Below, one piece after another: positions 1,805 to 55,499 of a stretch of DNA of 64,000 bases (the stretch's first letter is position 1; every line of letters begins with the position of its first letter). Source of the stretch: Escherichia coli (GTDB lineage Bacteria > Pseudomonadota > Gammaproteobacteria > Enterobacterales > Enterobacteriaceae); the NCBI RefSeq assembly GCF_003018115.1, contig NZ_CP027457.1, one strand, 5' to 3'. The position numbers and the translations under genes are program-made. Below the pieces are notes generated by a model. It did not search any database and had not been told where the DNA came from. It was given only the letters and a program-made list of their open reading frames with translations.

Positions 1805-4800
1805 ACATATTCACGCTTTCCCTCGGTCTGGCCGTCATGCCGATGGTCGAGGCAGCACCAACCGCTCAGCAACAGTTGCTGGAGCAAGTTCGGTTAGGCG
1901 AAGCGACCCATCGTGAAGACCTGGTACAGCAGTCGTTATATCGGCTGGAACTTATTGATCCGAATAACCCGGACGTCGTTGCCGCCCGTTTCCGTTCTTT
2001 GTTACGTCAGGGCGATATTGATGGCGCGCAAAAACAGCTCGATCGGCTGTCGCAGTTAGCGCCGAGTTCAAATGCGTATAAATCGTCGCGGACTACGATG
2101 CTACTTTCCACGCCGGATGGTCGTCAGGCACTGCAACAGGCAAGATTGCAGGCGACTACCGGTCATGCGGAAGAAGCTGTGGCGAGTTACAACAAGCTGT
2201 TCAACGGTGCGCCGCCGGAAGGTGACATTGCTGTCGAGTACTGGAGTACGGTGGCGAAAATTCCGGCTCGCCGTGGCGAAGCGATTAATCAGTTAAAACG
2301 CATCAATGCGGATGCACCGGGCAATACGGGCCTGCAAAACAATCTGGCGCTATTGCTGTTTAGTAGCGATCGCCGTGACGAAGGTTTTGCCGTCCTGGAA
2401 CAGATGGCAAAATCGAACGCCGGGCGCGAAGGGGCCTCTAAAATCTGGTACGGGCAGATTAAAGACATGCCCGTCAGTGATGCCAGTGTGTCGGCGCTGA
2501 AAAAATATCTCTCGATCTTTAGTGATGGCGATAGCGTGGCGGCTGTGCAATCGCAACTGGCAGAACAGCAAAAACAGCTGGCCGATCCTGCTTTCCGCGC
2601 TCGTGCGCAAGGTTTAGCGGCGGTGGACTCTGGTATGGCGGGTAAAGCCATTCCCGAACTACAACAGGCGGTGCGGGCGAACCCGAAAGACAGTGAAGCT
2701 CTGGGGGCGCTGGGCCAGGCGTATTCTCAGAAAGGCGATCGCGCCAATGCAGTGGCGAATCTGGAAAAAGCCCTCGCACTGGACCCGCACAGCAGCAACA
2801 ACGACAAATGGAACAGTCTGCTGAAAGTAAACCGCTACTGGCTGGCGATCCAGCAGGGCGATGCTGCGCTGAAAGCCAATAATCCTGACCGGGCAGAACG
2901 CCTGTTCCAGCAGGCGCGTAATGTCGATAACACCGACAGTTATGCAGTGCTGGGGCTGGGCGATGTGGCGATGGCGCGAAAAGATTATCCCGCCGCCGAA
3001 CGTTATTATCAGCAGACCTTGCGTATGGACAGCGGCAACACTAACGCCGTGCGCGGGCTGGCAAATATTTACCGCCAGCAATCGCCAGAAAAAGCTGAAG
3101 CGTTTATCGCCTCGCTCTCTGCCAGTCAGCGGCGTAGCATTGATGATATCGAACGCAGCCTGCAAAACGACCGTCTGGCACAGCAGGCAGAAGCACTGGA
3201 AAACCAGGGCAAATGGGCGCAGGCGGCAGCACTTCAGCGGCAACGACTGGCGCTGGACCCCGGCAGCGTATGGATTACTTACCGACTTTCGCAGGATCTC
3301 TGGCAGGCCGGACAACGCAGCCAGGCCGATACGTTAATGCGCAATCTGGCGCAGCAGAAGCCGAACGACCCGGAGCAGGTTTACGCTTACGGGCTGTACC
3401 TCTCTGGTCATGACCAGGACAGAGCGGCGCTGGCGCATATCAACAGCCTGCCGCGTGCGCAGTGGAGCAGCAATATTCAGGAGCTGGTTAATCGACTGCA
3501 AAGCGATCAGGTGCTGGAAACCGCTAATCGCCTGCGAGAAAGCGGCAAAGAAGCTGAAGCGGAAGCGATGCTGCGTCAGCAACCACCTTCCACGCGTATT
3601 GACCTCACGCTGGCTGACTGGGCGCAGCAGCGACGTGATTACACCGCCGCCCGCGCTGCATATCAGAATGTCCTGACGCGGGAGCCAACTAACGCCGATG
3701 CCATTCTGGGGTTGACGGAAGTGGATATTGCTGCCGGTGACACAGCAGCGGCACGTAGCCAGCTGGCGAAACTGCCCGCTACCGATAACGCCTCGCTGAA
3801 CACACAGCGGCGCGTGGCGCTGGCGCAGGCGCAGCTTGGCGATACCGCAGCGGCGCAGCAGACGTTTAATAAGTTGATCCCGCAGGCAAAATCTCAGCCA
3901 CCGTCGATGGAAAGCGCGATGGTGCTGCGCGACGGTGCGAAGTTTGAAGCGCAGGCGGGCGATCCAAAGCAGGCGCTGGAAACCTACAAAGACGCCATGG
4001 TCGCATCCGGTGTGACTACGACGCGTCCGCAGGATAACGACACCTTTACCCGACTGACCCGTAACGACGAGAAAGATGACTGGCTGAAACGCGGCGTGCG
4101 CAGCGATGCGGCGGACCTCTATCGCCAGCAGGATCTTAACGTCACCCTCGAGCATGATTACTGGGGTTCGAGCGGCACCGGTGGTTACTCCGATCTGAAA
4201 GCGCACACTACCATGTTGCAGGTGGATGCGCCGTATTCTGACGGGCGGATGTTCTTTCGCAGTGATTTCGTCAATATGAACGTCGGCAGTTTCTCCACGA
4301 ATGCCGATGGTAAATGGGATGACAACTGGGGCACCTGTACATTACAGGACTGTAGCGGCAACCGCAGCCAGTCGGATTCCGGTGCCAGCGTGGCGGTCGG
4401 CTGGCGAAATGACGTCTGGAGCTGGGATATCGGCACCACGCCGATGGGCTTCAACGTGGTGGATGTGGTCGGCGGCATCAGTTACAGCGATGATATCGGG
4501 CCGCTGGGTTACACCGTTAACGCCCACCGTCGTCCCATCTCCAGTTCTTTGCTGGCCTTTGGTGGGCAAAAAGACTCCCCGAGCAATACCGGGAAAAAAT
4601 GGGGCGGCGTGCGTGCCGACGGCGTGGGGCTAAGCCTGAGCTACGATAAAGGTGAAGCAAACGGCGTCTGGGCATCGCTTAGTGGCGACCAGTTAACCGG
4701 TAAAAATGTCGAAGATAACTGGCGCGTGCGCTGGATGACGGGCTATTACTATAAGGTCATTAACCAGAACAATCGCCGCGTCACAATCGGCCTGAACAAC

Positions 4801-5340: not shown

Positions 5341-7329
5341 TTGCGCGTAAGTCGCTCGTTAACAATCAAGCAGATGGCAATGGTGGCAGCCGTTGTCCTG
5401 GTGTTCGTTTTTATTTTTTGCACCGTTTTGCTGTTCCATCTGGTCCAGCAGAATCGCTATAACACGGCTACGCAACTGGAAAGCATTGCTCGCTCTGTCC
5501 GCGAACCCTTATCTTCAGCTATTTTGAAAGGCGATATTCCCGAAGCGGAAGCTATTCTTGCCAGCATTAAACCGGCAGGCGTGGTCAGCCGTGCCGATGT
5601 AGTGCTGCCCAACCAGTTCCAGGCGCTGCGTAAAAGTTTTATTCCAGAGCGCCCGGTGCCGGTAATGGTTACTCGCCTGTTTGAGCTACCGGTTCAAATC
5701 TCGCTGGGCGTTTACTCGCTCGAACGTCCGGCAAATCCGCAGCCAATTGCCTATCTGGTGCTACAGGCGGATTCCTTCCGTATGTATAAGTTCGTGATGA
5801 GCACCCTCTCAACGTTAGTGACCATTTACTTACTTTTGTCGTTAATATTGACGGTGGCGATTAGCTGGTGCATTAACCGCCTGATTTTGCATCCGTTACG
5901 CAATATTGCTCGCGAACTTAACGCCATCCCAGCCCAGGAGCTTGTTGGTCACCAACTGGCATTACCGCGTCTGCATCAGGATGATGAAATCGGTATGTTG
6001 GTGCGCAGTTACAACCTCAACCAGCAATTGCTGCAGCGCCATTATGAAGAACAGAACGAAAATGCGATGCGCTTCCCAGTGTCGGATTTGCCGAACAAAG
6101 CCTTGCTGATGGAGATGCTGGAGCAGGTTGTCGCGCGTAAACAAACCACCGCGCTGATGATCATCACCTGTGAAACCCTGCGTGATACTGCGGGTGTGCT
6201 GAAAGAGGCGCAACGAGAAATTCTGCTGCTGACGCTGGTGGAAAAACTCAAATCGGTACTGTCGCCACGTATGATCCTCGCGCAGATTAGCGGTTATGAC
6301 TTTGCTGTCATTGCCAATGGTGTACAGGAACCGTGGCACGCAATCACCTTAGGTCAGCAAGTGCTCACTATCATGAGCGAGCGCCTGCCGATTGAACGTA
6401 TTCAACTCCGTCCGCACTGTAGCATTGGCGTGGCGATGTTCTACGGCGATCTCACCGCCGAACAGCTTTACAGTCGCGCTATTTCTGCGGCATTTACCGC
6501 TCGCCATAAAGGCAAGAATCAGATTCAGTTCTTTGATCCGCAGCAGATGGAAGCCGCCCAGAAGCGGTTGACGGAAGAGAGCGATATCCTTAATGCACTG
6601 GAAAATCATCAGTTTGCTATTTGGTTACAGCCACAGGTCGAGATGACCAGCGGTAAACTGGTCAGTGCGGAAGTGTTACTGCGTATCCAGCAACCGGATG
6701 GCAGTTGGGACCTGCCGGATGGCTTAATCGAGCGCATTGAGTGCTGTGGGCTGATGGTTACCGTCGGTCACTGGGTGCTGGAAGAGTCCTGTCGATTGCT
6801 TGCAGCCTGGCAAGAGCGCGGCATTATGCTGCCCTTGTCGGTAAACCTCTCTGCGCTGCAACTGATGCACCCGAATATGGTGGCGGATATGCTGGAACTG
6901 TTAACCCGCTATCGCATTCAGCCGGGAACACTGATTCTGGAAGTGACAGAAAGCCGACGTATTGACGACCCTCATGCTGCGGTGGCAATCCTCCGTCCGC
7001 TGCGCAATGCTGGAGTTCGGGTGGCGCTGGATGATTTCGGCATGGGCTACGCAGGGCTGCGTCAGCTGCAGCATATGAAATCGTTGCCAATCGACGTTCT
7101 GAAAATCGACAAAATGTTTGTTGAAGGCTTGCCGGAAGATAGCAGCATGATTGCTGCAATTATCATGCTGGCGCAGAGCCTGAACTTACAAATGATTGCC
7201 GAAGGCGTGGAGACTGAAGCACAACGCGACTGGCTGGCAAAAGCGGGCGTTGGTATTGCCCAGGGCTTCCTTTTTGCTCGTCCACTCCCTATTGAAATCT
7301 TCGAAGAGAGTTACCTGGAAGAAAAGTAG
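5341..7329 (+). CDS. pdeK: c-di-GMP phosphodiesterase PdeK (YhjK/HmsP-like; TM-HAMP-degenerate GGDEF-EAL)
   Basis: 662-aa ORF with N-terminal TM segments and C-terminal EAL domain motifs (EVTE, DDFG(M)GYAG, KIDK); apparent TTG start codon. Confidence 0.88.
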
Positions 7330-49989: not shown

Positions 49990-51279
49990 TTACAAAGTGA
50001 AAGAGAGACGTAGCGCCAGCGCAGCCAGCGTCACAAACAGCACAGGCAGGGTCATGATAATCCCTGTACGGAAGTAATATCCCCAGCTGATAGTCATATT
50101 CTTCTGCGAAAGTACGTGCAGCCAGAGCAGTGTCGCCAGGCTACCAATCGGGGTGATTTTCGGCCCCAAATCGCAGCCAATCACGTTGGCATAAATCATC
50201 GCTTCTTTGATAACGCCAGATGCCGTGCTGCCATCAATGGACAACGCGCCAACCAGTACCGTCGGCATATTGTTCATAATAGAAGAGAGGAAGGCGGTGA
50301 GGAATCCGGTGCCGAGCGTCGCGGCCCACAGGCCGTTATCCGCCAGCACGTTGAGTACGCCAGAAAGATATTCCGTTAATCCGGCATTGCGCAGGCCATA
50401 AACCACCAGATACATGCCGAGCGAGAAGATGACAATCTGCCAGGGTGCACCGCGCAGGACTTTACCCGTATTAATCGCATGACCGCGTTTAGCGACGACA
50501 AACAAAATCAGCGCGCCCACAGCTGCAATGGCGCTCACCGGAATGCCGAGCGGTTCCAGGACGAAAAATCCCACCAACAGAAGCAGTAAAACAACCCAGC
50601 CTGTTTTGAACGTAGCAGGATCTTTAATCGCTTCTGCGGGAGATTTCAGCAGCGCCATGTCGTAGTTCTGCGGAATATCTTTGCGGAAATAGAGATGCAG
50701 CATCACCAGCGTGGCAACAATCGCGGCGATATCCACCGGCACCATCACCGAGGCATATTCGCGAAAGCCGAGGCCAAAGAAATCAGTGGAAACGATATTC
50801 ACCAGGTTGGAGACAATAAGCGGCAGGCTGGCGGTGTCGGCAATGAATCCGGCCGCCATCACGAACGCAAGCGTCGTGCCTTTACTGAATCCTAAGGCCA
50901 GCAGCATGGCGATGACAATCGGCGTCAAAATAAGCGCCGCGCCATCATTGGCAAACAGGGCGGCAACGGCGGCACCGAGCAGGACAATCCAGGTAAACAG
51001 CAAGCGACCGCGTCCATTGCCCCAGCGTGAAACGTGCAGCGCCGCCCATTCAAAAAAGCCGGACTCATCCAGCAGCAGGCTGATGATAATGACGGCAATA
51101 AACGCAGCCGTCGCGTTCCAGACGATATTCCACACCACCGGAATATCGCCCGGATGTACTACGCCCGTAACTAACGCCAGTACCGCGCCGAGCGTTGCAC
51201 TCCAGCCGATGCCTAAACCTTTCGGCTGCCAGATAACCAATACAATGGTCAGGACAAAGATAGCGCCTGCCAGTAACAT
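49990..51279 (-). CDS. arsB: Arsenite/antimonite efflux pump ArsB
   Basis: ORF 49990..51300; start likely [11 protein letters not shown] giving 429 aa; polytopic membrane protein. Confidence 0.93.
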
Positions 51280-51333
51280 AATGCCTCCCGGATAAAACAC
51301 ATGTGAAAATCCATATGTGTTTAGCTAAATTTT

Positions 51334-51687
51334 TTAACTGCAAATGTTCTTACTGTCTGCGGAACAGTTTTGTCGGGCCAGGTTGTGGACAATCGCCTGA
51401 ACCTTTTCCTGTTCACATCGCCAGGCTTCATCAATAATTTTCGCCGCCCATGCTGGAATATGCGGCGATAAGCGGTAATGAACCCACTTACCTTGCTTGC
51501 GGTCCAGCAATAGCCCGCTTTCCCGAAGTAACGCCAGGTGGCGGGATATCTTGGGCTGCGACTGATCGAGGGCAGTGCAGAGATCGCAGACGCATAACTC
51601 TCCCAGTTCGCTGAGCAGTAAAACGATGCCCAGACGGGTTTCATCAGCAAGAATTTTGAACAATTGGATGGGTAACAGAAATGACAT
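51334..51687 (-). CDS. arsR: Arsenite-responsive repressor ArsR
   Basis: 117-aa ORF with metalloid-binding ELCVCDLC motif and wHTH. Confidence 0.94.
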   Translation of the reverse strand: MSFLLPIQLFKILADETRLGIVLLLSELGELCVCDLCTALDQSQPKISRHLALLRESGLLLDRKQGKWVHYRLSPHIPAWAAKIIDEAWRCEQEKVQAIVHNLARQNCSADSKNICS

Positions 51688-51838
51688 ATTGCGCTCCTGA
51701 TTGTTGCAGGTAGTGTCTCTCTTCGAAGCGGATAAGTCAAAAACATATATGACTTAACGAATATGTAAGTGTAGAGAAAGGTATAGGTGTGAATTTTGAG
51801 TTGGGTATTCATTTGAAAGGAGGTCTGGATCAGGACGT

Positions 51839-51925
51839 AAAAAAACCGACTTTGCGTCGGTTTTTACTCTTCAGCCTGAGTTGGTGGCTCTGGCCGGAGT
51901 GAGAATGCCCACATCTAACGGTTCA
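51839..51925 (-). ncRNA. agrB: AgrB-like small RNA (antitoxin sRNA of the dinQ type I TA locus), approximate
   Basis: First copy of a roughly 235-bp tandem repeat; minus-strand hairpin (aaccgacgcaaagtcggtt) plus 7-U terminator; position next to arsR as recalled for K-12. Boundaries approximate. Confidence 0.5.
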
Positions 51926-52070
51926 ATACTATTAGCCAGTGGCTAACATTGCAAGCGTTAGCGATTTCTTCAGCTGGAGAAGGGACAGTTTGCTATACAT
52001 GTTGGTGAAAGAGGATTTATATACGTTCATCGGGTCGCTGCCGTACCAAGCCTTGTCCGAATCCGGACGT

Positions 52071-52158
52071 AAAAAAACCGACTTCGCGTCGGTTTTTTTA
52101 CTCTTCAGCCCAGAGTTGGTGGCTCTGGCTGGAGTGAGATAGCCATCATCTAACGCAT
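52071..52158 (-). ncRNA. agrA: AgrA-like small RNA, second repeat copy, approximate
   Basis: Second tandem copy with the same hairpin plus U-run terminator on the minus strand; divergent from the LexA-box promoter. Boundaries approximate. Confidence 0.5.
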
Positions 52159-52218
52159 CAATGCTAATACCATACTGAAACTATTGCAAGGACGTGCTGG
52201 TTCTATAACCTGCATGTA

Positions 52219-52234
52219 CTGTATGATTATCCAG
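52219..52234 (+). promoter_or_regulatory. LexA (SOS) box, putative dinQ promoter operator
   Basis: CTGTatgattatCCAG fits CTGT-N8-ACAG with one mismatch; lies in the agrA/dinQ divergent region, with a tataac -10-like hexamer just upstream. Confidence 0.55.
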
Positions 52235-52311
52235 TTAGCTCTGAGGCATTTTCACTCTGGCAATGCGCTTGACATCCTCCACGCCCTAAAGGACGTGGAT
52301 TCCTGCTACGT

Positions 52312-53532
52312 TCAGGCTGTCGCCTGAATCATTTCGGTGGGTTCCTGCTTCAACGGGCGGCCTGACTGCACCATCCCTCCACAGGCAAGAACGGCGTGCC
52401 CCGCCGCTAAAATGTTACGAGCGCCGTTTACATCGGCGTTCGCTGTATATCCACATACCGGGCATCTGAATTGACTTTGTGACAGGCGATTTTCTTTCGC
52501 TGTATGACCACAGCACGCGCAACGCTGGCTTGTGTACGCTGGCGGAACAGCAAGCACCTGACCGCCACGCCAGAGCTGCTTGTACTCAAGCTGGCGGCGC
52601 ATTTCATACCAGCCCTGATCCAGTATCGAACGGTTTAAACCTGATTTTGCCCGGACATTGCGCCCCGGCAGGCTGACCGTACCCGATGCTGACTTTGACA
52701 TGTTGCTGACCTTCAAATCCTCAATGACTATCATTGCGTGGTTTTTGCTGACGGTCGTTGTGACTTTGTGAAGGTAGTCCCTGCGGATATTTGCGATACA
52801 GGAATGCAGTCGCTGTATTTTGCGTTTCTGCTTCTGCCAGTTGTTGCTGAATTTGACCTTGCGGCTTAACTGTCGCTGAAGTCTCGCCAGCTTCTTCTGG
52901 TTTTTCTGAAAACTGTTTACAGGCTCAAAGGCTGTGCCATCTGACAGCGTGGCGAGTTTAGCCACGCCAGCATCCAGCCCGACCATTGATGCTGAAGGGT
53001 GAACCGGAGTTGATACTTCACTTTCTGTCTGAATACTGATGTACCACTTACCGCAGGACTGGCTGACCGTGACATTTTTCACAACACCCGTGACCTGACG
53101 GCTATTCCGGTAGCGCATCCAGCCCAGTTTCGGCAGAAAAATACGGCTGTTTTCCTGATCGAGCTTAACGCCCTGCGGGTAGCGGAATGCATCATTCTGT
53201 CCCCGCTTTTTGAATCGGGGAAAAGCAGCCCGCTTCTGGAAGAAGTTTTTGTAAGCCCGCTCAAGGTCTTTCAGTGACTGTTGCAATGGCTGTGAGGGCG
53301 AATCTTTAAGCCATTGCGTTTCAGTGGCGTTTTTCCACTCAACCAGCCAGGAAGCCATTTTCCCGTAAGGGATGTATTTATTACCGGCCTCATGATTCTC
53401 ATTCTGACGTGCCAGAGCACGATTGAAAACGAAACGACATGCGCCTGCGAAGCGCCTCATTTCACGCTCCTGTTGACCACCGGGTCTTAACTGGAATTTA
53501 AATGCCTGTAGTCGTTTCATGGGCCAAATCAT
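52312..53532 (-). CDS. tnpB: TnpB (OrfB_IS605) RuvC-like RNA-guided endonuclease / accessory transposase protein
   Basis: 406-aa ORF (start may be Met5, [13 protein letters not shown]); RuvC-like acidic residues in [23 protein letters not shown]; zinc-finger CACCGH...CPVCGY. Confidence 0.85.
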
Positions 53533-53542
53533 ACTTTGGCCT

Positions 53543-53958
53543 ATGAAAAAAGAAACCGATATCCGACGCGGAAGGCATTGTGTTTTCCTGATGCATGTTC
53601 ACCTGGTCTTCGTTACTAAATACCGACGTCAGATTTTTGACTATGACGCGACAGAAAAACTACGCACTTACTTTTCAAATGTATGTGCTGATTTTGAAGC
53701 TGAACTGGTTGAAATGGATGGCGAACCAGATCACGTCCATTTGTTAATTAACTATCCTCCCAAACTGGCGATATCCAGTCTGGTAAACAGCCTCAAAGGC
53801 GTATCGGGTAGGTTACTGCGACGAGATCGACCAGATATTGCAGCCAGGTATTACTACAAAGCGTTTTGTGGAGTCCTGGCTATTTTGCCAGTAGCTGCGG
53901 TGGTGCACCAATATCCATCATCCGCCAATACATTGAACAACAGCAAACACCTGGTTAG
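53543..53958 (+). pseudogene. tnpA: IS200/IS605 Y1 (HuH) transposase TnpA, apparently frameshifted
   Basis: N-terminal HuH motif (HVHLVF, KYRRQ) and second HxH (DHVHLLI) in the ORF frame; conserved C-terminus LWSPGYFASSCGGAPISIIRQYIEQQQ is in another frame from about 53866, ending at 53958. The 175-aa track ORF (to 54046) is a frame-fusion artefact. Confidence 0.55.
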
Positions 53959-54015
53959 GTGGAAAACCGCACCTTATATCCCCGCCCTGAATGAACGGGG
54001 TTTTACGGCGCACCG

Positions 54016-54093
54016 GATAAAGCAATCATCGTTCTTGGGGCGTTAATTGCGCTGCTGGAACTGATCCGCTTTCTGCTTCAGCTTCTGAACTGA
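54016..54093 (+). CDS. dinQ: DinQ-like type I toxin peptide ORF (codons 3-27 present; no in-frame start codon)
   Basis: Encodes DKAIIVLGALIALLELIRFLLQLLN*, matching recalled DinQ from residue 3; upstream in-frame codons (TGFYGAP) contain no ATG/GTG/TTG back to a stop at 53992; convergent with gor. Confidence 0.5.
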   Translation, partial: DKAIIVLGALIALLELIRFLLQLLN

Positions 54094-54110
54094 TAGCGGA
54101 AACGTAATTA

Positions 54111-54139
54111 AGGGCTAAGAGCACACTACTCTTAGCCCT
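54111..54139. terminator. Bidirectional stem-loop between dinQ and gor
   Basis: Perfect 11-bp stem agggctaagag/ctcttagccct with 7-nt loop between convergent ORFs. Confidence 0.6.
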
Positions 54140-54146
54140 TTAACAT

Positions 54147-55499
54147 TTAACGCATTGTCACAAACTCTTCTGCCGCCGTTGGGTGAATGGCGACGGTATT
54201 GTCGAAGTCTTTTTTGGTTGCGCCCATCTTCAGCGCCACCGCGAAGCCCTGCAACATTTCGTCCATACCAAAGCCAATGCCGTGAATACCGACAATCTTC
54301 TCTTCCGGTCCAACGCACACCAGCTTCATGCGGCACGGCTGGCGGTGAGTGGTGACGGCGGTATACATCGCGGTGAAAGAGGATTTATACACTTTCACCT
54401 GATCGTCGCCGTACTGCTCGCGCGCCTGCGGTTCCGTTAAACCAACAGTACCAATCGGCGGATGGCTGAAGACCACGGTCGGAATGTTGCTGTAATCCAG
54501 ATGCTCATCCGGCTTGTTATTAAATAGGCGTTCAGAGAGGCGGCGACCCGCTGCAACTGCCACCGGTGTCAGTTCTACTGCACCCGTGTTATCGCCCACC
54601 GCGTAAATACCTTCAATATTGGTGTTTTGATATTTATCGACGACGATATAGCCTTTTTCGTTAGTTTTAACGCCAGCGGCTTCCAGGTTGATGTTGTCAT
54701 TGGCAGGCTCGCGACCAATCGCCCAAATCAGGCAATCCACCGTTTCACTGCGACCATCTTCCAGCTCCAGCGTCAGGCTGCCATCGGCATTTTTCACTAC
54801 CGCTTTCGGGATGGCGTTGGTGTGCAACTGCGGACCTTCGGCGTTCATCACTTCGACCAGCGTTTCAGAGATCATCGGGTCGAAGCTGCGCAGCGGCGCA
54901 TGTTTACGCACAAACAGATGCGTTTTCGCGCCGAGGCCGTTAATCACGCCAGCCAGCTCAACGGCGATGTAACCCGCGCCAACAACCGCCACGCGCTCTG
55001 GCAAAGCAGGAAGGGCGAAGAAGCCATCAGAATCAATACCGTATTCCACGCCCGGAATATCCGGGTGGCTCGGACGACCGCCGGTGGCGATCAGAATATG
55101 ATCGGCCGTGATGGTTTCACCGTTAACTTCCAGCGTTTTGGCATCAACGAAGCGGGCAAAACCTTTGATTACATCAACGTTATTTTTACCGAGCACGTTT
55201 TCATAGGAAGTATGAATACGGTCGATATAGGCGGTACGGCTGGCGATCAACGTTTCCCAGTTGAATTTATTGATAGTGGTATCGAAACCATAATCCGGAC
55301 CGTACATGTGGATCGCTTCACGGATTTGCGCCGCGTGCCACATCACTTTCTTCGGTACGCAGCCGACGTTCACGCAGGTGCCGCCCAGCTCTTTGGCTTC
55401 AATCAGTGCGCATTTCTGGCCGTACATAGCCGCGCGGTTGATGGAGGCGATACCGCCGCTGCCGCCGCCGATGGCGATGTAATCATAGTGTTTAGTCAT
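54147..55499 (-). CDS. gor: Glutathione reductase Gor
   Basis: 450-aa ORF with FAD-binding GGGSGG and redox-active CVNVGC motifs. Confidence 0.95.

What the first reader, a model, noticed from the sequence alone, without database searches (positions are those of the whole stretch)
51832..52165. Tandem direct repeat of about 235 bp (agrB-like and agrA-like units), each with its own hairpin/U-run terminator
Two copies of ggacgtaaaaaaaccgact(t/c)(t/c)gcgtcggttttt(tt)actcttcagcc-(t/c)-gagttggtggctctggc-(c/t)-ggagtgaga begin near 51833 and 52068. The dinQ-proximal promoter region (52232..52262) resembles the reverse complement of the repeat's 5' part, so the divergent transcripts may start with homologous sequences. 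The two copies differ at several positions, which could tune antitoxin specificity.
Basis: partly seen in the sequence, partly recalled or inferred. Interest (0 to 1): 0.3.

Follow-up and report, generated by a model that had tools for sequence, protein, structure and literature searches.

The report
Known agrA/agrB antitoxin RNA pair
The repeat is the well-known pair of small antisense RNA genes agrB and agrA that normally restrain the SOS-induced membrane toxin DinQ in E. coli; it is ordinary, except that in this strain an IS609 element has destroyed the toxin gene and left the two antitoxin RNAs without a target.

Summary
Two homologous units, 51823-51961 and 52055-52197, lie 232-235 bp apart with a unique ~93-bp spacer. 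Both are full-length matches to Rfam AgrB (RF02891; 79.5 and 90.7 bits, cut-off 40) on the minus strand. Each has a conserved promoter and an A-run/hairpin/U-run terminator. That segment is the published cis element "sequence 1".

- A 1,748-bp IS609 (52269-54016) replaces dinQ +36..+201. This removes the AgrB binding site, the Shine-Dalgarno sequence and the GTG start, so the agr genes are orphans here. The allele occurs in 6 of 5,426 complete E. coli genomes.
- About 29% of E. coli genomes have collapsed to one agr unit.
- In 6 of 9 sampled two-copy genomes the agrA-position copy, not agrB, best matches that genome's own dinQ target.

Verdict: already known, low interest. The modest extra value lies in the allele-switching and orphan-antitoxin observations.

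The parts
51837..51918 (-). agrB-position sRNA gene (arsR-proximal unit). It has an unstructured 5' head with the antisense determinant (head nt 8-17 GUGGGCAUUC), stem-loop 1 and a terminator hairpin followed by U7.
   Evidence: Rfam RF02891 at 79.5 bits (cut-off 40), model positions 1-84. Aligns to K-12 agrB b4713. MFE -28.8 kcal/mol, z = -3.66. This is the lowest Rfam score of all agr units scanned: it has a 1-nt deletion in stem-loop 1 (CUCA-GGCUG) and a shorter A-run.
51926..51954 (-). agrB promoter: -35 TTGCAA (51949-51954), 17-nt spacer, -10 TAGTAT (51926-51931).
   Evidence: Read directly from the sequence. Both hexamers are conserved with K-12, where the start site was mapped by primer extension (PMC3567139). 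It scores 8 of 12, below the 9 of 12 that the consensus scan requires.
51962..52054 (.). Unique spacer between the two units; not part of the repeat.
   Evidence: No similarity to the sequence after unit 2 on either strand. It is the most divergent stretch in the K-12 alignment.
52069..52153 (-). agrA-position sRNA gene (dinQ-proximal unit; head nt 8-17 GAUGGCUAUC).
   Evidence: Rfam RF02891 at 90.7 bits, model positions 1-84. In the first 33 nt it differs from K-12 agrA b4712 at one base. MFE -33.7 kcal/mol, z = -5.10.
52161..52189 (-). agrA promoter: -35 TTGCAA (52184-52189), 17-nt spacer, -10 TAGCAT (52161-52166).
   Evidence: Read from the sequence. This stretch is identical to K-12.
52219..52234 (+). 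LexA operator CTGTATGATTATCCAG, overlapping the dinQ promoter.
   Evidence: Identical to K-12. Described as the dinQ LexA operator in PMC3567139.
52234..52268 (+). dinQ +1..+35, all that remains of the dinQ 5' UTR. It holds the agr-like inverted partial repeat copy, 'sequence 1' (U16-C28 = 52249-52261).
   Evidence: A 35-nt prefix identical to the K-12 dinQ transcript. 23/28 identical to the window's agrB head, with 0 of 2000 shuffles reaching the score. Numbering is anchored on PMC5066626.
52269..54016 (-). IS609 (IS200/IS605 family), 1,748 bp, with its top strand on the window's minus strand. The right end lies at 52269 and the left end at 54016. The tnpB ORF is 52312-53532 (-). The tnpA gene, from about 53519 (+), is frameshifted.
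   Evidence: Full-length ~97% matches in other genomic contexts, with one copy's tnpA annotated as 'IS609 family'. Pfam finds OrfB_IS605, Cas12f1-like_TNB and HTH_OrfB_IS605 in TnpB, and Y1_Tnp in TnpA. Six copies all lie 3' of TTAT. An empty site reading TTTAT|CATATC fixes the ends of the element.
54017..54146 (+). dinQ +202..+331: a DinQ remnant of codons 3-27 (DKAIIVLGALIALLELIRFLLQLLN, stop at 54091-54093) plus the dinQ terminator. It has no promoter, Shine-Dalgarno sequence or start codon.
   Evidence: Alignment to the K-12 dinQ transcript. The in-frame translation shows an upstream stop and no ATG/GTG/TTG. RefSeq calls a 22-aa 'DinQ' at this place in strain F9792.

Best explanation
The two repeat units are the paralogous small-RNA genes agrB (51837-51918) and agrA (52069-52153). 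[quoted passage not shown]

Each unit is a complete gene on the minus strand. It has a sigma-70 promoter (TTGCAA, 17 nt, TAGTAT or TAGCAT) and encodes an RNA of about 82-85 nt. The RNA has a single-stranded 5' head of about 31 nt, a short stem-loop and a Rho-independent terminator.

In K-12 the mechanism has been shown experimentally (literature). The AgrB head pairs with G88-A119 of the LexA-controlled dinQ mRNA. That site is a third, same-strand copy of the repeat core. Pairing keeps the Shine-Dalgarno hairpin of the processed +44 dinQ mRNA closed and directs RNase III cleavage. AgrA has more mismatches and does not protect. The dinQ 5' end (+16..+28) is an inverted fourth copy of the core and competes in cis for the same site.

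In this window (shown here) the toxin half is dead. IS609 occupies 52269-54016 and dinQ +36..+201 is missing. This removes the AgrB site, the Shine-Dalgarno sequence and the GTG start.

By inference, agrA and agrB are therefore orphan antitoxin genes in this strain. They are probably still transcribed, but they have no local target. Before the IS609 event the arsR-proximal copy was probably the cognate antitoxin, because it pairs with the dinQ target allele of strain 47258 at 30 Watson-Crick pairs plus one G·U.
For: - Rfam RF02891 matches both copies full length at 90.7 and 79.5 bits, above the cut-off of 40, and these are the only such matches in the window.
- The gene order arsB-arsR-agrB-agrA-dinQ-gor matches the K-12 annotation (b4713, b4712, b4613).
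- Both RNAs fold into stem-loop 1 plus a terminator, with z-scores of -3.7 and -5.1.
- The Rfam structure is compatible with 97.5% of cells in 19 distinct agr RNAs, against 31-58% in slid controls.
- Promoter hexamers are conserved with K-12.
- The mechanism and experiments are in PMC3567139 and PMC5066626.
- Loss of dinQ: the window equals K-12 dinQ +1..+35 and then +201/202..+331. The insert is a full-length IS609. The DinQ remnant has no start codon.
- No other agr-complementary core exists in the window.
- The window's agrB head is identical to that of strain 47258, whose dinQ target pairs with it at -61.2 kcal/mol, against -41.1 for the window's agrA copy.
Against: - No expression data exist for this strain. 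Transcription of both units is inferred from promoter conservation with K-12.
- The stems are nearly invariant, so there is no covariation support.
- The arsR-proximal copy has the lowest Rfam score of all units examined, with a 1-nt deletion in stem-loop 1. It may already be decaying rather than functional.
- 'Orphan' refers to the window only. A dinQ-like (dql) target elsewhere in this genome or on its plasmids could not be excluded. The F9792 chromosome shows only the two agr units, but toxin targets there were not searched.
Confidence: 0.93

Rival explanations
1. The repeat is an assembly duplication or a recent, functionless tandem duplication.
For: The two units are adjacent, similar and in the same orientation.
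Against: The copies differ at about 20% of aligned columns and are separated by a unique spacer. The same two-copy layout occurs in about 3,825 of 5,426 complete genomes and in E. whittamii at the same 235-nt spacing. K-12 annotates both as genes, supported by Northern and primer-extension data.
Confidence: 0.01
2. The units are only bidirectional intergenic terminators or REP-like palindromes serving arsR and dinQ, not sRNA genes.
For: The A7-hairpin-T7 element is symmetric and could terminate transcription on either strand. A weak plus-strand AgrB hit (26.8 bits, E = 0.25) reflects this palindrome.
Against: The homology extends about 100 nt beyond the hairpin, through stem-loop 1, the head and a conserved promoter. 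Full-length covariance-model matches occur on the minus strand only. Discrete transcripts were mapped in K-12.
Confidence: 0.03
3. Both copies remain functional here because they act on another target, for example a plasmid or chromosomal dinQ-like (dql) toxin mRNA. On this view they would be an anti-addiction or cross-protecting module rather than orphans.
For: agr-like sequences occur at 553 plasmid places. One inspected plasmid locus has the same layout, with an agr-like asRNA upstream of dqlB. The predicted duplex of the window's agrB with that dqlB 5' UTR is -44.7 kcal/mol. Both agr promoters are intact although dinQ is lost.
Against: -44.7 kcal/mol lies within the non-cognate range seen among E. 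coli alleles (-35.5 to -56.0). The plasmid asRNA head is clearly different. No dql gene lies in the window. The dinQ::IS609 allele is rare (6 genomes), so retention of the agr genes may only reflect too little time for decay.
Confidence: 0.08
4. The naming is position-blind. In many lineages the dinQ-proximal 'agrA' copy is the real antitoxin and the arsR-proximal 'agrB' copy is the mismatched one, and the pair acts as an exchangeable reservoir of specificity alleles through gene conversion among the repeat copies.
For: In 6 of 9 sampled two-copy genomes with intact dinQ, the agrA-position copy gives the stronger predicted duplex with that genome's own target. Examples are -49.6 vs -36.7 kcal/mol in WCHEC035148, ETEC-2265 and XH989, and -53.5 vs -36.3 in H9. 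Variation is concentrated in head columns 8-15 (p = 1e-5). Each genome's target pairs better with its own agr set (mean -52.7) than with sets from genomes carrying other target alleles (mean -45.8). The window's agrB 3' half carries agrA-type residues (GCUGAAGAG), which suggests exchange between copies.
Against: The case rests on predicted duplex energies only. The sample is small, not phylogenetically independent, and was chosen by similarity ranking. T1TAdb already selects whichever asRNA pairs best, so the idea is implicit in earlier work. It does not apply to this window, whose target is deleted.
Confidence: 0.35

Closest known systems
AgrA and AgrB sRNAs of E. coli K-12 (b4712, b4713; Rfam RF02891) of the DinQ/AgrB type I toxin-antitoxin family
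   Same: The locus (arsR-gor), order, strand, promoters, stem-loop 1 and terminator are the same. The agrA-position copy differs from K-12 agrA at 1 of its first 33 nt.
   Different: The agrB-position head is GUGGGCAUUC rather than K-12's AAGAACUCUC, and stem-loop 1 has a 1-nt deletion. The dinQ target, Shine-Dalgarno sequence and start codon are absent because of IS609.
Plasmid dqlB loci with an agr-like asRNA (DinQ-like family, Kristiansen 2016)
   Same: An asRNA is transcribed divergently upstream. Its head is repeated on the same strand inside the toxin 5' UTR. Stem-loop 1 and the terminator are homologous.
   Different: There is a single asRNA copy with a different head sequence. The similarity is only about 82% over about 60 nt, and the locus is plasmid-borne.
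Other E. coli type I toxin-antitoxin loci with a non-overlapping, divergently encoded antitoxin: tisB/istR-1, zorO-orzO/zorP-orzP, shoB/ohsC
   Same: [quoted passage not shown] From my own knowledge: the complementarity is short, tisB is LexA-controlled, and zor-orz is tandemly duplicated.
   Different: No sequence homology was tested or is claimed. In zor-orz the whole module is duplicated. Here only the antitoxin gene is duplicated.
IS609 (IS200/IS605 family, TnpA plus TnpB)
   Same: The insert matches other IS609 copies end to end at about 97%. It has the same TTAT left-flank target and the same termini.
   Different: tnpA is frameshifted. The two flanks are not contiguous in the ancestral sequence: 166 nt of dinQ between two TTTAT sites are missing.

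Membership tests
AgrA/AgrB sRNA (Rfam RF02891) | Sequence and structure match above the Rfam gathering score | tested here: met
   90.7 and 79.5 bits against a cut-off of 40. Both matches cover model positions 1-84 on the minus strand.
AgrA/AgrB sRNA (Rfam RF02891) | [quoted passage not shown] | tested here: met
   ORF map and K-12 alignment. ArsR confirmed by Pfam HTH_5.
AgrA/AgrB sRNA (Rfam RF02891) | Own promoter and Rho-independent terminator, giving an RNA of about 85 nt | tested here: met
   The -35 and -10 hexamers are conserved with K-12 at a 17-nt spacing. The hairpin plus U7 is seen in the folds. Actual transcription cannot be tested with these tools.
AgrA/AgrB sRNA (Rfam RF02891) | About 31 nt of 5' antisense complementarity to the dinQ mRNA of the same locus (G88-A119) | tested here: not met
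   The target segment is deleted in this window, and the window holds no other complementary core. Against the dinQ allele of strain 47258, the arsR-proximal copy pairs at 30 Watson-Crick pairs plus 1 G·U.
Functional DinQ/AgrB type I toxin-antitoxin module | Intact toxin ORF with Shine-Dalgarno sequence, start codon and a LexA-controlled promoter joined to it | tested here: not met
   The promoter and +1..+35 are separated from codons 3-27 by IS609. +36..+201, which includes the Shine-Dalgarno sequence and the GTG, is absent, and no start codon lies in frame.
Functional DinQ/AgrB type I toxin-antitoxin module | The antitoxin RNA represses toxin translation or stability | not testable with these tools
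   Shown for K-12 AgrB only (PMC3567139, PMC5066626).
IS609 (IS200/IS605 family) | Y1 transposase plus TnpB, insertion 3' of a conserved short target, no target duplication | tested here: met
   Pfam finds Y1_Tnp, OrfB_IS605 and Cas12f1-like_TNB. TTAT lies 5' of the left end in 6 of 6 copies. An empty site shows precise insertion. tnpA is frameshifted here.

The most novel reading that the evidence does not exclude
The agrA/agrB pair may not be one true antitoxin plus a defective paralog. It may instead be a two-slot reservoir of specificity alleles. The hypervariable 8-nt head and the matching dinQ target would be exchanged among the repeat copies by gene conversion, so that the cognate antitoxin sits at the agrB position in some lineages (K-12, 47258) and at the agrA position in others (O157, ETEC-2265, H9, WCHEC035148). 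The same direct repeats would also drive frequent collapse to one unit, seen in about 29% of genomes, including a class that loses both promoters. In the present strain the toxin was removed by IS609, leaving both slots orphaned.
Probability: 0.35. Interest if true: 0.4.

Novelty: already known. Interest (0 to 1): 0.15.

Why it matters
The finding itself re-discovers two annotated and experimentally characterised E. coli genes, so it adds nothing new.

The by-products are modestly useful.
- They warn that the K-12 rule 'AgrB is the antitoxin, AgrA is inert' may not transfer by position to other lineages. This matters for annotating type I toxin-antitoxin loci and for experiments in pathogenic strains.
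- They show that natural null alleles of the DinQ system exist. One is the IS609 disruption in the O169:H41 ETEC lineage. The other is repeat collapse, which also occurs in Nissle-type strains. These alleles could serve as natural knock-outs for studying DinQ's role in the SOS response.
- RefSeq annotates a 22-aa 'DinQ toxin' in the IS609-disrupted strains that has no canonical in-frame start codon and no promoter. This is probably an annotation artefact.

Tried and rejected
- **Consensus promoter/terminator scan.** It found neither agr promoter nor either terminator. The promoters score 8 of 12, and the U-run is probably absorbed into the extended A:U stem. I used folding and Rfam instead.
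- **Megablast with one agr unit.** It saw one place per genome and only 3,203 genomes, because it needs a 28-nt exact word. I redid the search in distant mode.
- **Covariation test of the two hairpins.** It was uninformative. 17 of 21 pairs never vary and no pair changes on both sides.
- **Cross-talk of the orphan agr RNAs with a plasmid dqlB mRNA.** The predicted energy lies in the non-cognate range, so this is not supported.
- **Sub-threshold Rfam hits.** Spy779816 and the plus-strand AgrB hit come from the terminator palindrome. HgcC, sot0042 and RAGATH-18 lie at the tnpB 3' end and right end of IS609. I treated all as chance, or at most as a hint of the TnpB guide-RNA scaffold.
- **Simple IS609 insertion as the whole explanation for the dinQ break.** Rejected, because the two flanks are 166 nt apart in intact dinQ.
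- **Literature search on IS609.** It gave no mechanistic paper on its target site, so I derived the target from six copies and an empty site.
- **The agr core outside Escherichia.** The three non-Escherichia hits are contigs of 424 to 3,711 bp carrying E. coli-type agr units. I read them as contamination or mis-binning.

Full report
**1. The observation**

The window around the finding holds two homologous segments in direct orientation. Word diagonals at offsets 232, 234 and 235 link 51833-51955 to the region 52065-52190. The repeat finder reports the same families. Taken from promoter to terminator, the units are 51823-51961 and 52055-52197, with 119 identical positions in 148 aligned columns. 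The RNA-coding parts differ at 10 of 84 columns.

The ~93 bp between the units (51962-52054) is unique sequence. This is therefore two ~140-bp units spaced 235 bp apart, not a head-to-tail 235-bp tandem. The 19-nt core occurs exactly twice in the 64-kb window, against 0.01 expected.
- Copy 2 starts at 52065.
- Only one loop position varies.
- One of the listed differences includes an indel.

**2. What it is**

Rfam finds two full-length AgrB (RF02891) matches on the minus strand: 52069-52153 at 90.7 bits and 51837-51918 at 79.5 bits, with a cut-off of 40. They are the only such matches in the window.

The surrounding ORFs are arsB (49990-51300, -), arsR (51334-51687, -) and gor (54147-55499, -) (ArsR confirmed by Pfam). 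K-12 MG1655 annotates the same interval as gor, dinQ (b4613), agrA (b4712), agrB (b4713), arsR. The window aligns base for base with it in reverse orientation. The arsR-proximal unit is therefore agrB by position, and the dinQ-proximal unit is agrA.

Each unit has these features:
- A -35 TTGCAA, a 17-nt spacer and a -10 TAGTAT (agrB) or TAGCAT (agrA), conserved with K-12.
- A fold made of an open 5' head, a short stem-loop and an A-run/CCGAC-loop-GTCGG/U7 terminator.

Across 19 distinct agr RNAs collected here, the Rfam structure fits 97.5% of cells, against 31-58% for slid controls. The stems never covary because they hardly vary at all.

**3. How it works (literature)**

Weel-Sneve et al. 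2013 (PMC3567139) identified agrA and agrB in the 823-bp arsR-gor region and mapped their transcripts. They showed that 31 nt at the 5' ends are antisense to dinQ, at 30/31 for agrB and 25/31 for agrA. Only AgrB counteracts DinQ toxicity.

Kristiansen et al. 2016 (PMC5066626) showed that AgrB binds G88-A119 of dinQ mRNA. This keeps the Shine-Dalgarno hairpin of the active +44 transcript closed and directs RNase III processing. In the primary transcript, 'sequence 1' (U16-C28) pairs with 'sequence 2' (G94-G106), which lies inside the same site.

I anchored dinQ +1 at window 52234 with these coordinates. All published positions then fall on the expected bases in K-12.

**4.

dinQ +1..+28 (52234-52261) shares 23 of 28 positions with the 5' end of the window's agrB RNA, and both begin GUUAG. 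None of 2000 shuffles reaches the score. The match to agrA is weaker, with 44 of 2000 shuffles reaching it.

The divergent transcripts therefore do start with homologous sequence. This segment is the transcribed dinQ leader rather than the promoter, and it contains the published sequence 1. An intact locus carries four copies of the core:
- two agr genes,
- the dinQ target on the same DNA strand (hence antisense to the agr RNAs),
- the inverted dinQ head, which mimics the antitoxin in cis.

**5.

The window is identical to K-12 dinQ for +1..+35 (up to 52268) and resumes at +201/202 (54016/54017). The intervening 1,748 bp is a complete IS609.
- It matches other genomic copies end to end at about 97%, and one copy's tnpA is annotated as 'IS609 family'.
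- It encodes a TnpB (OrfB_IS605, Cas12f1-like_TNB and HTH domains) and a frameshifted Y1 transposase.
- All six copies examined lie 3' of TTAT and share the same termini.
- An empty site in another strain reads TTTAT|CATATC, which fixes the ends of the element.

The missing dinQ segment (+36..+201, 166 nt) contains the AgrB site, sequences 2-4, the Shine-Dalgarno sequence and the GTG start. The remaining frame reads stop-TGFYGAP-DKAIIVLGALIALLELIRFLLQLLN with no start codon. No other agr-complementary core exists in the window. Here agrA and agrB are antitoxin genes without a local toxin.

The junction occurs in 6 of 5,426 complete E. coli genomes. Five match at 99.5%: F9792, F8111-1SC3, two O169:H41 strains and LR882990. 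The sixth is GF4-3 at 95.5%, which has identical junctions but only one agr unit.

**6. Population context**

A single agr unit used as a query in distant mode finds 9,296 chromosomal places in 5,422 genomes. This implies that about 71% of genomes have two units and about 29% have one. It agrees with the 3,825 genomes that cover at least 80% of the two-unit query.

The single-unit genomes inspected fall into two classes.
- **One agr gene plus an intact dinQ:** Z1322HEC0005, A21, MS8345, KKa014.
- **A collapsed hybrid:** EC32 and PBP8, with Nissle-type rows apparently the same. All three same-strand repeat copies have recombined into one. This removes the agr promoter, the LexA promoter and dinQ +1..~+113.

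From evenly spaced result rows, the hybrid class makes up roughly 12-15% of genomes, but only two members were inspected.

Outside E. coli, the core was found only in other Escherichia: E. albertii and Escherichia sp. E1V33 with one unit each, and E. whittamii with two units 235 nt apart. Three further hits were short contigs that look contaminated.

**7. Which copy is cognate?**

For each sampled genome I paired each agr head with that genome's own dinQ target.

| Genome | agrB-position duplex (kcal/mol) | agrA-position duplex (kcal/mol) | Better copy |
|---|---|---|---|
| K-12, CAVP766 | -53.6 | -38.1 | agrB position |
| 47258 | -61.2 | -47.0 | agrB position |
| O157 FDAARGOS_293, strain 110 | -41.3 | -46.8 | agrA position |
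| WCHEC035148, ETEC-2265, XH989 | -36.7 | -49.6 | agrA position |
| H9 | -36.3 | -53.5 | agrA position |

Among the 19 distinct RNAs, 7 of 8 head columns (8-15) vary, against 8 of 76 elsewhere (Fisher p = 1e-5). Targets pair better with their own genome's agr set (mean -52.7) than with sets from genomes carrying other target alleles (mean -45.8).

The window's agrB head is identical to that of strain 47258. It pairs with that strain's target at 30 Watson-Crick pairs plus 1 G·U (-61.2), against -41.1 for the window's agrA. The arsR-proximal copy was therefore probably the cognate antitoxin before IS609 arrived.

These are predicted energies on a small, non-independent sample. T1TAdb already chooses whichever asRNA pairs best and notes that AgrA is present only in some strains (PMC8594479). 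The idea is thus only a modest extension of what is known.

**8. Verdict**

The finding is a correct re-identification of known genes, so its novelty is 'already known' and its interest is low. The side observations deserve a note but not a high score: orphaned antitoxins after IS609 disruption, repeat collapse in about 29% of genomes, and position-switching of the cognate copy.

Noticed in passing
window 52269-54016 (with flanks 52234-52268 and 54017-54146): A complete IS609 interrupts dinQ, and its two flanks are not contiguous in intact dinQ: 166 nt (+36..+201) are missing. On the IS top strand, both edges of the missing segment abut TTTAT, the IS609 target. In the K-12 antisense strand these sites read GCTTTAT|CAATCAC and GCGTTTAT|GCGCATT. 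Each junction therefore looks like a genuine IS609 insertion, but at two different sites. Possible histories are insertion followed by a TTTAT-microhomology deletion, recombination between two IS copies, or a transposase-mediated adjacent deletion. This is unresolved.
   Followed up: partly
window 52219-52320: The intact LexA-controlled dinQ promoter now points into the right end of IS609, antisense to the 3' end of tnpB, where the TnpB guide RNA would be made. Conversely, a guide read through from this right end would begin GCGCAUUGCCAGAGUG. That matches the intact dinQ site next to a TTAT, as expected for an element first inserted at dinQ +35/+36. Sub-threshold Rfam hits (RAGATH-18 at 28.1 bits, sot0042, HgcC) fall on this tnpB 3' region.
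   Followed up: no
L005 (EC32) 801-1055; L015 (PBP8) 801-1053: A common E. coli allele class has all three same-strand repeat copies collapsed into one hybrid unit. An estimated 12-15% of complete genomes carry it, apparently including Nissle-type strains. It lacks the agr promoter, the dinQ LexA promoter and dinQ +1..~+113, and arsR and arsB are also absent. RefSeq still annotates an intact 27-aa DinQ there.
   Followed up: partly
L002 (F9792) 6337-6405; L017 (GF4-3) 4456-4524; window about 54026-54093: RefSeq annotates a 22-aa 'damage-inducible type I toxin DinQ' in the IS609-disrupted strains. The frame has no canonical start codon, no Shine-Dalgarno sequence and no promoter, so this is probably a homology-driven annotation artefact.
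   Followed up: yes
window 51837-51918: The arsR-proximal agr copy of this window has the lowest Rfam score (79.5 bits) of about 25 agr units scanned; the others score 88.9-108. It has a 1-nt deletion in stem-loop 1 and a shortened A-run, and it differs by one A from strain F9792. This could be early decay of an orphan gene or plain noise.
   Followed up: partly
L032 (plasmid pP15-385-b) 690-1148: The plasmid dqlB locus has the same architecture as dinQ/agr, with a single agr-like asRNA whose head is repeated inside the dqlB 5' UTR. It lies next to a Hok/Gef gene. One search found 553 such agr-like places on E. coli plasmids.
   Followed up: partly
window 26020-26133, 31912-31983, 41652-41683: Other known RNA elements score above the Rfam gathering cut-off: GadY (150 bits), ES205 sRNA (101 bits) and the shuA/chuA 5' UTR thermoregulator (60 bits). 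They fit an E. coli window that carries the chu haem-uptake locus.
   Followed up: no
L026 (Acinetobacter haemolyticus, 424-bp contig), L027 (Lachnospiraceae MAG, 1,061-bp contig), L025 (uncultured bin, 3,711-bp contig): Short contigs filed under non-Escherichia genomes carry E. coli-type agr units at 104-106 bits. They are most likely contamination or mis-binning in those public assemblies.
   Followed up: no
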